A stretch of DNA of 64,000 nt from a virus. Numbering within the stretch: the first letter of the stretch is position 1; every line of letters starts with the position of its first letter. The notes beneath the pieces are model-generated. The model was not told the DNA's origin. It saw only the letters and a program-made list of their open reading frames with translations, and searched no databases. The position numbers and the translations under genes were made by a program. Below, one piece after another: positions 19,886 to 20,583 of this stretch. The stretch lies in the IMG/VR virus record IMGVR_UViG_3300031857_000027; one strand, given 5' to 3'.

Positions 19886-19976
19886 ATATTGAAACATACT
19901 GCCTTTGCGACACCTCTTCATAGAAGACTCCAGCAATGCAGAACGACTCAGCGGTCTTTGCAATATGTTTCAATAT
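19886..19976 (-). ncRNA. Hairpin-closed inter-tRNA RNA cassette 1 (putative)
   Basis: Terminal inverted repeat ATATTGAAACATATTGC...GCAGTATGTTTCAATAT. Confidence 0.5.
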
Positions 19977-20050
19977 GGCCGGTCCTGAGAGAATCGAACT
20001 CCCACTTGGTGGTCCGTAGCCACCCGTAATATCCATTTTACTAAAGACCG
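19976..20050 (-). tRNA. tRNA-Arg(ACG)
   Basis: Cloverleaf, CCA. Confidence 0.88.
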
Positions 20051-20057
20051 TAAAACT

Positions 20058-20141
20058 TGGTGGGTAACCTCGGAGTCGAACCAAGTATGCCGAAGCGTCT
20101 GATTTACAGTCAGGTGCAGTCACCAATGCTGCTCGTTACCC
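20058..20141 (-). tRNA. tRNA-Tyr(GTA)
   Basis: Type II cloverleaf, CCA. Confidence 0.88.
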
Positions 20142-20148
20142 ATATTAC

Positions 20149-20222
20149 TGGCAGGGGATGTAAGAATCGAACTTACGACAACGGAATCAAAATCCGTGGT
20201 TATACCATTTAACTAATCCCCA
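20149..20222 (-). tRNA. tRNA-Gln(TTG)
   Basis: Cloverleaf, CCA. Confidence 0.88.
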
Positions 20223-20225
20223 ACA

Positions 20226-20349
20226 ATATTAGAATTGCAGTCTGCACTATTTGCTATGCTCAACGGAATGTCCGGCCGGCTTTACCGTTTATTTACATAG
20301 TTACTCAGGCATGATCAAGCCCATGGCTTACAAACTGCAAATCTAATAT
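20226..20349 (-). ncRNA. Hairpin-closed inter-tRNA RNA cassette 2 (putative)
   Basis: Closing stem ATATTAGATTTGCAGTTTG...CAGACTGCAATTCTAATAT. Confidence 0.5.
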
Positions 20350-20423
20350 GGCTGCTCAGGTAGGGATCGAACCTACGACACACGGATTAACAGTCCGCTG
20401 ATCTACCGCTGATCTACTGAGCA
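20349..20423 (-). tRNA. tRNA-Asn(GTT)
   Basis: Cloverleaf, CCA. Confidence 0.9.
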
Positions 20424-20429
20424 TCATTC

Positions 20430-20507
20430 TGGCGACATGTACGGGATTCGAACCCGTGGTCTCCGCCGTGACAGGGCGGCGCATTAGGCCAACTATGCTA
20501 ACATGCC
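20430..20507 (-). tRNA. tRNA-Asp(GTC)
   Basis: Cloverleaf, CCA. Confidence 0.9.
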
Positions 20508-20583
20508 ATATTGAAACACACTGGGACTCCATTGGAGTTGAATTATCCTCGGAACAACCCTTAGAACCAATGTGCTTCAATAT
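20508..20583 (-). ncRNA. Hairpin-closed inter-tRNA RNA cassette 3 (putative)
   Basis: Closing stem ATATTGAAGCACATTGG...CCAGTGTGTTTCAATAT. Confidence 0.5.

What the first reader, a model, noticed from the sequence alone, without database searches (positions are those of the whole stretch)
19886..20583. Three hairpin-closed RNA cassettes placed flush between tRNA genes
Seen: the spacers at 19886-19976 (Arg/Ala), 20226-20349 (Asn/Gln) and 20508-20583 (Lys/Asp) each begin at the A of the upstream CCA with ATATT and end in AATAT. Each forms a 17-19 bp closing stem around a different internally structured core. Cassettes 1 and 3 share ATATTGAA(A/G)CA(T/C)ATTG...CAGT(A/G)TGTTTCAATAT and end exactly at G1 of the next tRNA. 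Most other spacers in the array are only a few nt. Inference: tRNA processing (RNase P and 3' trimming) would release these as discrete stable RNAs of 75-125 nt. They could be tRNA-processed small RNAs (decoys, antisense, or T4 species 1/2-like RNAs) or tiny TIR elements that target CCA ends.
Basis: partly seen in the sequence, partly recalled or inferred. Interest (0 to 1): 0.75.

Follow-up and report, generated by a model that had tools for sequence, protein, structure and literature searches.

The report
Hairpin-clamped RNA cassettes between phage tRNAs
Three self-folding RNA modules sit exactly between tRNA genes of an uncultured lake T4-like phage; they belong to a large, apparently undescribed, phage-only family in which one conserved 16-bp "clamp" helix encloses well over a hundred different structured cores, and the same modules also fill the cut-out spacer of the phages' two-piece tmRNA genes.

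Summary
On the minus (tRNA) strand, three spacers (Arg/Ala, Asn/Gln, Lys/Asp) start at the A of the upstream CCA, end at or 3 nt before the next tRNA, and fold into 17-21 bp closing stems (z -3.3 to -5.5).

They are not isolated. It found only scattered single hits in bacterial genomes and nothing in GenBank phages.

In 238 unique cassettes the clamp is 16 bp. It is extended by ACC/GGU pairing with the neighbours and has a conserved U.G wobble. G.U outnumbers A.C 357:41 on the tRNA strand. Cores fall into 171 clusters, always in one orientation, and several covary. None matches Rfam.

Near-identical sister phages have empty, filled or differently filled junctions. This phage's permuted tmRNA has a spacer about 90% identical to a sister phage's Arg/Ala cassette. 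Cassette 1's core is the tmRNA spacer in other phages.

Best reading: these are excisable, exchangeable RNA modules, cut out by tRNA-end processing and released as clamped structured RNAs. What the cores do is unknown.

MITE, attC and antisense readings are poorly supported.

Earlier notes of this scan saw the same design in other genomes.

The parts
19886..19976 (-). Cassette 1 (91 nt including the A of the tRNA-Arg CCA). It has a 17-bp clamp. The core is of the 'AAGACCGCUGAGUCGUUCU' family.
   Evidence: The core family occurs in 19 viral contigs. In 8 of them ARAGORN calls a permuted tmRNA in which this core is the intervening segment, closed by a different clamp. The variable hairpin of the core covaries.
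20226..20349 (-). Cassette 2 (124 nt). The clamp is a variant (AUAUUAGAUUUGCAGU...) with compensatory changes. The core is a three-way-junction type that begins AAGCCAU.
   Evidence: In a 12-sequence alignment (A1), 12 of 31 predicted pairs have compensatory double changes.
20223..20225 (-). UGU linker between cassette 2 and G1 of tRNA-Gln.
   Evidence: It is conserved in L091, L077, L058 and L083.
20508..20583 (-). Cassette 3 (76 nt). It has a 17-bp consensus clamp with two G.U pairs. The core is of the 'UUCURAGGGUUGUUCC' family.
   Evidence: The core family is found with four clamp variants at different tRNA junctions, and its second hairpin covaries (CUCC/GGAG versus CUUC/GAAG).
19976..20050 (-). 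tRNA-Arg(acg). Its encoded CCA supplies the first clamp nucleotide of cassette 1.
19810..19885 (-). tRNA-Ala(tgc). Its G1 directly follows cassette 1, and its GG can pair with the upstream CC.
20349..20423 (-). tRNA-Asn(gtt), upstream of cassette 2.
20149..20222 (-). tRNA-Gln(ttg), downstream of cassette 2.
20583..20659 (-). tRNA-Lys(ttt), upstream of cassette 3.
20430..20507 (-). tRNA-Asp(gtc), downstream of cassette 3.
1..74 (-). First 74 nt of the 87-nt intervening segment of this phage's permuted tmRNA. It is a fourth cassette of the same superfamily. The last 13 nt and the coding piece lie beyond the window edge (G000:C1:127264-127350).
   Evidence: ARAGORN calls a permuted tmRNA. Rfam beta_tmRNA scores 139 bits. 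The segment is about 90% identical to the Arg/Ala cassette of L091, L077 and L083.
75..113 (-). Acceptor piece (3' tRNA-like domain ending in CCA) of the permuted tmRNA, directly upstream of that cassette.

Best explanation
The three spacers belong to a large, phage-restricted superfamily of self-folding RNA cassettes. These cassettes occupy 'slots' between an encoded CCA 3' end and the next RNase P-processed 5' end in stable-RNA operons, both tRNA arrays and permuted tmRNA genes.

Shown here:
- Each cassette is closed by a conserved 16-bp clamp, with consensus 5' arm AUAUUGAAGCACAUUG and 3' arm CAGUGUGYUUCAAUAU.
- The clamp starts with A76 of the upstream RNA and ends at position -1 of the downstream RNA. 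It can be extended by ACC/GGU pairing with the two neighbours.
- The clamp is under strand-specific, single-strand (RNA-type) selection.
- It encloses one of more than 170 unrelated core families. Each family is conserved across phages and some covary.
- Cassettes are present, absent or replaced at the same junction in nearly identical phages.
- The same cores occur both between tRNAs and as tmRNA intervening segments.

Inferred mechanism:
- In the polycistronic precursor the clamp folds the cassette onto itself. This keeps it from interfering with tRNA folding and brings the two processing sites together.
- RNase P cuts at the 3' boundary, where U is at -1.
- A 3'-end endonuclease cuts at or just after the CCA. 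Candidates are RNase Z/BN acting after CCA, or RNase E at the AU-rich AU|AUU. These candidates come from my own knowledge of E. coli and T4 tRNA maturation.
- The cassette is then released as a 35-130 nt RNA whose paired ends protect it from exonucleases.
- The core would be the working part: a trans-acting structured RNA. About 7% of cores are tRNA mimics carrying a T-arm.

What the three cores in this window bind or do is unknown.
For: Position and fold:
- The boundaries are flush with the CCA and with G1, and the stems are stable.

Breadth:
Nearly all of them carry tRNA arrays.
- There are 238 unique cassettes in 94 loci.
- A scan of 596 Gb of bacterial and archaeal genomes found 78 single hits and no paired hits. 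The only hit with a tRNA array lies on a 4.9-kb contig carrying 15 tRNAs, probably a mis-binned phage contig.
- GenBank phages gave no cassette-type match: only three short single-arm-length hits at E about 9, in a tail-fibre gene, an unannotated record and a capsid gene.

RNA-type selection on the clamp:
- Pairing holds for exactly 16 positions and then collapses.
- U.G at position 13 is kept in 171 of 234 cassettes.
- G.U versus A.C is 357:41, and 47:5 in a set chosen without regard to strand.
- On 65 representatives, 96.1% of cells are paired, 13 of 19 pairs show double changes, and 0 of 500 shuffles reach this. Slid controls give 29-49% pairing.

Cores are real RNAs:
- There are 171 clusters and zero opposite-strand matches.
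- The cassette-2 type covaries (12 of 31 pairs). Hairpins of the cassette-1 and cassette-3 types also covary.
- 17 of 238 cores carry a T-loop motif, against 0.4 expected.

Excision:
- The phage's own beta-type permuted tmRNA has, as its intervening segment, a cassette about 90% identical to the Arg/Ala cassette of sister phages.
- Sister phages carry four different cores in that slot.
- The cassette-1 core is the tmRNA intervening segment in 8 other contigs where ARAGORN calls a permuted tmRNA.
- In two-piece tmRNA this segment is absent from the mature RNA and is cut out by tRNA-processing enzymes (PMC11915505).

Exchange:
- The Arg/Ala junction is empty in L058 (a 2-nt spacer). It holds three different single cores or a tandem pair in relatives with otherwise identical flanks.
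- Asn/Gln is empty in L049.
- Lys/Asp holds a bare 34-nt clamp in L018.

Weak evidence:
- Metatranscriptome contigs from three studies bridge tRNA-Asp and cassette 3. Depth is 2-3x and DNA carry-over is not excluded.
Against: - No RNA ends, abundance or processing were measured. The RNA-library contigs cannot show them.
- Strand-specific G.U (G.T) pairing would also fit a folded single DNA strand. Bioinformatics cannot cleanly separate ssRNA from ssDNA structures (PMC5737381).
- The strong sequence conservation of the clamp is not explained by stability alone. It suggests a specific reader (protein or RNA) that I did not identify, or homogenisation by recombination.
- Cassettes for the clamp statistics were chosen because they pair. 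This inflates the percentage paired, though not the double changes or the strand asymmetry.
- No target or partner is known for any core.
- Bare clamps of 34-43 nt exist. The clamp may therefore have a role of its own.
Confidence: 0.6

Rival explanations
1. Pure punctuation. The stems would be double-strand processing signals, like the RNase III stems around rRNAs or the 23S intervening sequences. They would serve only to separate neighbouring RNAs, and the cores would be tolerated filler that is degraded after excision.
For: - The clamp plus ACC/GGU flank pairs gives a 19-20 bp helix of fixed length, about the size of an RNase III substrate.
- Bare clamps without a core exist (34-43 nt).
- The cassettes sit in a slot that must be cut out (the tmRNA spacer).
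Against: - Most junctions in the same arrays work with 1-10 nt spacers and no stem, so the stem is not needed for processing.
- Junctions that are empty in one phage are filled in a near-identical one.
- Core families are conserved across distant phages, with invariant stretches and compensatory changes. Filler would not keep these.
- No RNase III gene was found in 8 carrier genomes. A host enzyme could still act.
Confidence: 0.15
2. Selfish mobile DNA. These would be miniature elements (MITE-, REP- or attC-like hairpins) that insert at CCA/G junctions because tRNA processing makes that site harmless. The clamp arms would be the ends recognised by a recombinase or used for recombination.
For: - There is presence/absence and replacement at identical junctions in near-identical phages.
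- The same core occurs at different junctions and in the tmRNA spacer.
- Tandem cassettes occur.
- The termini are conserved and the interiors are variable.
- A G.T-tolerant single-strand hairpin would fit ssDNA recombination sites (PMC5737381).
Against: - There is no target-site duplication. The empty Arg/Ala site (CCA-AU-GGGG) equals the filled site minus the insert, and the Asn/Gln empty site differs in sequence.
- Only 1 identical within-locus duplicate was found among 320 cassettes, and almost every cassette in a genome has a different core.
- Orientation relative to the tRNAs never flips.
- No tyrosine recombinase and no Y1 transposase was found in 8 carriers, 7 of them complete.
- Exchange can be explained by ordinary homologous recombination in the conserved flanking tRNAs and outer clamp.
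Confidence: 0.15
3. Decayed or derived tRNA genes. The cassettes would be remnants of tRNAs, or tRNA-like RNAs with over-long acceptor stems, with no separate identity.
For: - 17 of 238 cores carry a T-loop hairpin, often placed directly before the 3' clamp arm, as in a tRNA.
- One cassette (L090:2619-2713) scores 31 bits on the Rfam tRNA model.
Against: - 93% of cores have no T-loop.
- The three window cassettes give no tRNA or other Rfam signal at E<=1.
- The clamp sequence is unrelated to acceptor stems and is shared by unrelated cores.
Confidence: 0.05
4. Base-pairing (antisense) small RNAs that target phage or host mRNAs.
For: Only the general precedent of tRNA-linked small RNAs. Nothing found here supports it.
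Against: - The best complementarity of the three cores to the 133-kb phage genome is 11 nt, with E about 1.
- The cores are largely locked in their own helices.
- Host transcripts could not be searched, because the host is unknown.
Confidence: 0.03

Closest known systems
Phage T4 species 1 and species 2 RNAs (rnaC, rnaD)
   Same: Both are small stable non-tRNA RNAs of unknown function encoded inside a T4-type phage tRNA cluster, directly abutting a tRNA CCA end and co-transcribed with the tRNAs.
   Different: - The T4 RNAs have no 16-bp clamp and no similarity to the consensus.
- rnaC is tRNA-like with a T-arm and rnaD ends in ACCA.
- They resemble the non-tRNA 'GGU...ACCA' modules seen between cassettes in related contigs more than they resemble the cassettes themselves.
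Intervening segment (IVS) of circularly permuted two-piece tmRNA genes
   Same: Both lie between an encoded CCA end and the 5' end of the next piece, and the IVS is removed by tRNA-processing enzymes (PMC11915505). In these phages the IVS is literally a cassette of this superfamily.
   Different: - In the Rfam permuted-tmRNA consensus the IVS is a short AU-rich stretch.
- Here it is an 59-87 nt clamped, structured, exchangeable module that also occurs between ordinary tRNAs.
GOLLD and ROOL RNAs
   Same: These are structured phage RNAs of unknown function that cluster with tRNA islands (PMC12286853, PMC5737381). GOLLD occurs in two of the same arrays, in one case directly after a cassette.
   Different: GOLLD and ROOL are 400-800 nt single families. 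The cassettes are 35-130 nt, number more than 170 core families and share a common clamp. No cassette matches either Rfam model.
RNase III processing stems of rRNA operons and 23S rRNA intervening sequences
   Same: Both have a long closing helix formed by sequences that flank a unit within a stable-RNA precursor, and both are excised without religation.
   Different: - The helix here encloses the spacer, not the mature RNA.
- It has a strongly conserved sequence with a conserved U.G pair.
- RNase III involvement is untested.
Integron attC sites, MITEs and REP elements
   Same: They share conserved imperfect inverted ends around variable interiors, a cassette-like presence/absence pattern, and strand-specific hairpins.
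   Different: - The carriers encode no integrase or Y1 transposase.
- There is no target duplication, there are no multi-copy bursts, and orientation is fixed.
- The elements sit inside a transcribed RNA operon and carry RNA structures rather than ORFs.
Engineered tRNA scaffolds for expressing recombinant RNAs (own knowledge)
   Same: The working principle is the same: a structured RNA is embedded in a stable helix and uses tRNA-processing enzymes and paired ends for release and nuclease resistance.
   Different: The engineered version is artificial and places the insert in the anticodon stem of a tRNA. Here the element is natural and sits between tRNAs.

Membership tests
Any Rfam 15 family | Covariance-model match at or near the gathering score | tested here: not met
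   The window array was scanned at E<=1 and gave only tRNAs. 56 cassettes in 13 loci were scanned at E<=0.05 and gave no hit except one tRNA-like core. 14 loci scanned at gathering scores gave tRNAs (one of them on the tRNA-Sec model), GOLLD and one group I intron; 8 lower-scoring matches were not displayed.
T4 species 1/2 RNAs | Encoded in the phage tRNA operon, abutting a tRNA 3' end | tested here: met
T4 species 1/2 RNAs | Sequence or structure homology to rnaC or rnaD | tested here: not met
   The folds and sequences of rnaC and rnaD show no clamp and no consensus arms.
T4 species 1/2 RNAs | Accumulates as a discrete stable RNA after RNase P-dependent processing | not testable with these tools
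   Only contig-level metatranscriptome data were available.
Permuted-tmRNA intervening segment | Lies between the CCA of the acceptor piece and the 5' end of the coding piece of a permuted tmRNA | tested here: met
   Met for the fourth cassette (window 1-74 and beyond): ARAGORN calls a permuted tmRNA and Rfam RF01850 and RF04321 match. The three inter-tRNA cassettes are homologues of such segments but are not themselves in a tmRNA.
MITE / TIR transposon | Terminal inverted repeats | tested here: met
   The systematic U.G and G.U asymmetry is not expected of transposase-binding TIRs.
MITE / TIR transposon | Target-site duplication flanking the insert | tested here: not met
   Comparison of empty and filled Arg/Ala and Asn/Gln junctions.
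MITE / TIR transposon | Many near-identical copies per genome, in either orientation | tested here: not met
   One identical within-locus duplicate among 320 cassettes. No opposite-strand core matches.
Integron attC | Associated tyrosine recombinase (IntI) and ORF cassettes | tested here: not met
   PF00589 is absent from 8 carrier genomes. The units between cassettes are tRNAs and other RNAs.
Integron attC | Functions as a folded single DNA strand | not testable with these tools
   Strand-specific G.U/G.T pairs fit RNA or ssDNA equally well (PMC5737381).
RNase III processing stem | Roughly two turns of uninterrupted double helix | tested here: met
   16 bp plus 3 flank pairs, 96% paired.
RNase III processing stem | Cleavage by RNase III | not testable with these tools
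   The carriers encode no RNase III. The host enzyme is unknown.
GOLLD (RF02032) | Match to the GOLLD covariance model | tested here: not met
   GOLLD hits lie elsewhere in the arrays of L082 and L102, not in cassettes.

The most novel reading that the evidence does not exclude
Environmental T4-like phages may run an RNA-gene counterpart of an integron. CCA/+1 junctions in their tRNA arrays and tmRNA genes would act as standard slots. Clamp-closed structured RNAs from well over a hundred families would be shuffled into these slots through the shared clamp arms. Host tRNA-processing enzymes would then release each one as a stable trans-acting RNA. Together they would form a rapidly exchangeable arsenal of RNA decoys or aptamers, some of them tRNA mimics, aimed at host defence or translation factors. 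The conserved clamp, with its fixed U.G pair, would be the handle read by one dedicated protein.
Probability: 0.25. Interest if true: 0.9.

Novelty: new variant of a known kind. Interest (0 to 1): 0.72.

Why it matters
Phage tRNA clusters are usually annotated as tRNAs plus junk spacers. Here the spacers are a hidden layer of conserved, structured, exchangeable RNA genes. At least 171 core clusters turned up in a capped sample of viral contigs, with no Rfam entry and no cultured-phage representative found.

The link to the tmRNA intervening segment has two consequences. It gives a concrete and testable processing logic: the cassette must be cut out at both ends. It also suggests how permuted tmRNA genes acquire their spacers.

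If the cores act in trans, this would be a large new pool of natural RNA folds, and possibly of RNA-based anti-host tools.

If instead they are selfish passengers that survive because tRNA processing removes them, they would be an intron-like class of element for stable-RNA operons.

Either way, the conserved clamp is a simple search handle for finding them in metagenomes.

Tried and rejected
- **Antisense targets.** blastn-short of the three cores against the whole 133-kb phage genome gave nothing beyond 11-mers at chance level.
- **Cultured relatives.** A megablast of the array, distant BLAST of a bare clamp, of cassette 2 and of the tmRNA against 50,697 GenBank phage records gave only tRNA or T-arm matches.
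- **Bacterial genomes.** There were 78 single arm matches in 596 Gb and none was paired. One hit lies on a small 15-tRNA contig that is probably phage DNA binned into a MAG.
- **A dedicated phage nuclease.**
  - The RNase H-like ORF (PF04308) inside the array is present in 32 of the fetched loci, but in only 4 of 7 complete carrier genomes. It cannot be required.
  - No RNase III, tyrosine recombinase or Y1 transposase was found in 8 carriers.
  - A loose gapped pattern over 8 genomes was badly specified and uninformative.
  - A genome-wide scan for stems of at least 15 bp with G.U pairs allowed was swamped by background hits.
- **Metatranscriptomes.** Six RNA runs hold small shares of the array. 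The four that were laid gave only low-depth contigs, many from other organisms' tRNAs. Parts without cover, and the lack of mapped ends, say nothing.
- **Ser/Ser spacer.** The 113-nt spacer is not a cassette (z -0.11). It carries a small ORF.
- **Literature.** Four full-text searches found no description of these cassettes.
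Full report
**1. The observation**

ARAGORN finds 26 tRNA genes in the window, all on the minus strand. Twenty-three of them lie between 16853 and 21053.

- Cassette 1 (19886-19976) runs from the A of the tRNA-Arg CCA to the base before G1 of tRNA-Ala.
- Cassette 2 (20226-20349) runs from the A of the tRNA-Asn CCA. A UGU linker follows before tRNA-Gln.
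- Cassette 3 (20508-20583) runs from the A of the tRNA-Lys CCA to the base before G1 of tRNA-Asp.

All three start AUAUU and end AAUAU. They fold with closing stems of 17, 8+12 and 17 bp. Energies lie 3.3, 4.2 and 5.5 standard deviations below shuffled controls.

The other junctions of the array are 1-25 nt, apart from an ORF, a leader, a spacer with a small ORF and one long gap. An Rfam scan of the array at E<=1 returns only tRNAs.

**2. A large family, restricted to phages**

The genome is a 133-kb IMG/VR virus record, about 75% complete. It has a T4-type major capsid gene.

Many of them had a second, inverted copy 60-130 nt away. Nearly all of these loci carry tRNA arrays.

The same scan over 596 Gb of bacterial and archaeal genomes gave 78 single matches and no pair. 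This is about what chance predicts. The only hit with a tRNA array lies on a 4.9-kb contig carrying 15 tRNAs, probably phage DNA binned into a MAG. GenBank phages gave no cassette-type match, only three short hits at E about 9 in unrelated genes.

Six of seven complete carrier genomes (98-400 kb) have a T4-type capsid gene.

In 433 inter-tRNA spacers of 40-320 nt from these loci, the length of the terminal stem is bimodal. Background stems are 2-12 bp. A separate class of 54 spacers has 16-22 bp.

**3. The clamp**

A hairpin scan gave 238 unique cassettes of 34-291 nt, median core 58 nt, in 94 loci.

- Pairing holds for positions 0-15 and collapses at position 16. The helix length is therefore fixed at 16 bp.
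- The three bases before the clamp are mostly ACC or GCC, which with the clamp's first A make the upstream NCCA end. The three after are mostly GGU. This adds up to three more pairs with the neighbouring RNAs.
- Position 13 is U.G in 171 of 234 cassettes. Position 8 is G.U in 79.
- Positions 4, 5, 6, 9, 11 and 15 show several Watson-Crick pair types.

On 65 representatives, one per core cluster (alignment A4):

- 96.1% of cells pair, against 88.3% after shuffling.
- 13 of 19 pairs have changes on both sides.
- None of 500 shuffles reaches any of the five measures.
- Sliding the partner by 1-3 columns drops pairing to 29-49%.

The cassettes were picked because they pair, so the percentage paired is inflated. 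The double changes and the next point are not affected by that choice.

Mismatches are strongly strand-specific. On the tRNA strand, G.U outnumbers A.C by 357 to 41. In a set scored without favouring either strand, the ratio is 47 to 5. The helix is therefore selected as a folded single strand of the sense polarity. That strand is RNA, most simply, because it lies inside a tRNA operon. A folded DNA strand cannot be excluded by sequence alone (PMC5737381).

**4. The cores**

After removing the arms, the cores fall into 171 BLAST clusters. There is not a single opposite-strand match, so every core family keeps one orientation relative to the tRNAs. Only one identical duplicate was found within a locus among 320 cassettes. 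Loci hold up to nine cassettes, nearly all with different cores.

Each of the three window cassettes belongs to a conserved family.

- *Cassette-2 type.* Twelve sequences (alignment A1) give a three-way junction in which 12 of 31 predicted pairs show compensatory double changes. Its clamp also differs from the consensus in a compensated way.
- *Cassette-3 type.* The core occurs with four clamp variants (for example CAC/GUG, UAU/AUA, UAC/GUA at positions 9-11) behind different tRNAs. Its second hairpin switches CUCC/GGAG to CUUC/GAAG.
- *Cassette-1 type.* The core has an invariant 19-nt stretch and a variable, covarying hairpin. It occurs in 19 contigs with two unrelated clamps.

Seventeen of 238 cores carry a T-loop motif, against 0.4 expected. 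The motif is often placed directly before the 3' arm, as in a tRNA. One such cassette scores 31 bits on the tRNA model. No other Rfam family matches 56 cassettes at E<=0.05.

**5. Slots and exchange**

Sister phages have syntenic, nearly identical arrays; their embedded ORF is 94-98% identical. They differ at precisely these junctions.

- *Arg/Ala.* The junction holds the window's core in L056, a second core in L091 and L077, a third in L018, and two cassettes in tandem in L083. In L049 it holds the window's core at the start of a 672-nt spacer. In L058 it holds nothing, only a 2-nt spacer, and the flanks there are identical to L091.
- *Asn/Gln.* The junction is empty in L049.
- *Lys/Asp.* The junction holds 61-, 74- or 75-nt cassettes, composite spacers of 207-218 nt, or a bare 34-nt clamp (L018).

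The empty Arg/Ala site equals the filled site minus the insert, so there is no duplicated target. The empty Asn/Gln site differs in sequence from the filled one.

**6. The tmRNA link**

I tested this here.

ARAGORN calls a permuted tmRNA at G000:C1:127171-127567. This is window 1-167 on the minus strand, running over the window edge. Rfam confirms it as a betaproteobacterial-type two-piece tmRNA (RF01850, 139 bits; RF04321, 144 bits).

The 87 nt between the CCA of its acceptor piece and the 5' end of its coding piece are about 90% identical to the Arg/Ala cassette of L091, L077 and L083. The alignment includes a compensated G-C/A-U change in an inner hairpin.

Sister phages carry other cores in this slot, 59, 67, 71 or 87 nt long. 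One of them belongs to a core cluster that also occurs between tRNAs.

Conversely, the cassette-1 core is the tmRNA intervening segment in L256, L258, L261 and L268-L272.

[quoted passage not shown] Such tmRNAs are known in aquatic phages (PMC9004378). Members of this superfamily therefore sit where excision at both boundaries is obligatory. This is the strongest available, though still indirect, support for release of the inter-tRNA cassettes.

**7. How it most likely works**

*Shown:* the anatomy, the conservation, the strand-specific pairing, the exchange between slots, and the restriction to phages.

*Inferred:*

- The clamp makes the cassette fold on itself within the precursor.
- RNase P cuts at the 3' boundary, where U is at -1.
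- An endonuclease cuts at or next to the CCA.

From my own knowledge of E. coli and T4: RNase BN/Z can cut after an encoded CCA, and T4 tRNA maturation depends on it. The invariant AU|AUU also fits the RNase E preference RN|WUU. Neither was tested.

The released RNA would have paired ends and a structured core. The conservation of the cores argues that they, and not only the clamp, are selected. What they bind is unknown.

The sequence conservation of the clamp, with its fixed U.G, remains unexplained. It could reflect a dedicated reader, or homogenisation by recombination through the arms.

**8. Rivals**

- *Pure RNase III-type punctuation.* It fits the 19-20 bp length and the bare clamps. 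It does not explain conserved, covarying cores, nor why most junctions do without a stem.
- *Selfish DNA element.* It fits the gain, loss and replacement pattern. It is contradicted by the lack of target duplication, of multi-copy bursts, of orientation flips, and of any integrase or Y1 transposase in eight carriers.
- *Antisense action.* There is no support.
- *tRNA remnants.* This fits only about 7% of cores.

**9. RNA evidence**

Six metatranscriptome runs hold small parts of the array. In three of the four that were laid, contigs bridge tRNA-Asp and cassette 3. One of them also spans tRNA-Asn and part of cassette 2 (172 nt with no differences, 151 nt, and 349 nt). This is compatible with a precursor transcript. 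The depth is 2-3x, DNA carry-over is not excluded, and contigs cannot show ends.

**10. Comparison with known systems, and novelty**

The nearest functional analogues are:

- the T4 species 1 and 2 RNAs, which share the context but have no clamp and no homology;
- the GOLLD and ROOL RNAs, which cluster with phage tRNA islands (PMC12286853, PMC5737381). GOLLD is present in two of these arrays.

I found no Rfam family, no GenBank phage and no paper that describes clamp-closed cassettes shared between tRNA junctions and tmRNA spacers.

I therefore rate this a new variant of a known kind, namely small structured RNAs co-transcribed with phage tRNAs. Its architecture is modular and exchangeable, which is unusual. 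Other notes of this scan have seen the same design in other genomes.

Noticed in passing
window 19162-19629 (-): A 155-aa ORF with an RNase H-like fold domain (PF04308, E 2.8e-13; phrog_11311) fills the tRNA-Met/tRNA-Gly spacer, and its stop codon touches G1 of tRNA-Gly. Homologues of 50-98% identity lie in 32 of the cassette-bearing loci, but in only 4 of 7 complete carrier genomes. Its function is unknown and a link to the cassettes is not established.
   Followed up: partly
window 1-167 (-) and beyond the edge (G000:C1:127171-127567): A circularly permuted, betaproteobacterial-type two-piece tmRNA gene with tag ANDAFYGEERLAA. This points to a betaproteobacterial host lineage. The tag differs among sister phages.
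   Followed up: yes
window 18198-18320 (-): The 113-nt tRNA-Ser/tRNA-Ser spacer is not a cassette. It carries AAGGAG plus a 41-codon ORF for a very hydrophobic peptide, and the end of that ORF overlaps the first bases of tRNA-Ser(gct).
   Followed up: partly
L090, L101, L020, L044, L094, L082 and others (e.g. L101:473-601, L094:2840-2965): In many related arrays, cassettes alternate with 50-390 nt modules that start GGU and end ACCA but are not called as tRNAs. There are 71 such modules. 14 carry a T-loop motif and several recur as families across contigs. They look like a second class of unannotated tRNA-like RNAs, closer in design to T4 rnaC and rnaD.
   Followed up: partly
L082:2411-2870 (-), L102:1781-2242 (+): GOLLD RNAs (225 and 209 bits) lie in the same arrays, each with an embedded tRNA-Asn. 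In L102 the stretch that leads to the GOLLD hit starts directly after a cassette.
   Followed up: partly
L020:13185-13378 (-): A group I intron match (53 bits) lies inside a cassette-rich tRNA array.
   Followed up: no
L090:2613-2720 (-): The interior of this cassette scores 31 bits on the Rfam tRNA model. It is a tRNA-like core whose acceptor stem is continued by the clamp and which has no free CCA end.
   Followed up: partly
L018 Lys/Asp junction (34 nt); L125:3479-3514: These are bare clamps with only a 4-6 nt loop and no core. The clamp can therefore exist on its own.
   Followed up: partly
window 17215-17508 (-), 16177-16605 (-): A WYL_2 (Sm-like SH3) domain ORF and a rubrerythrin ORF lie just downstream of the tRNA array.
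   Followed up: no
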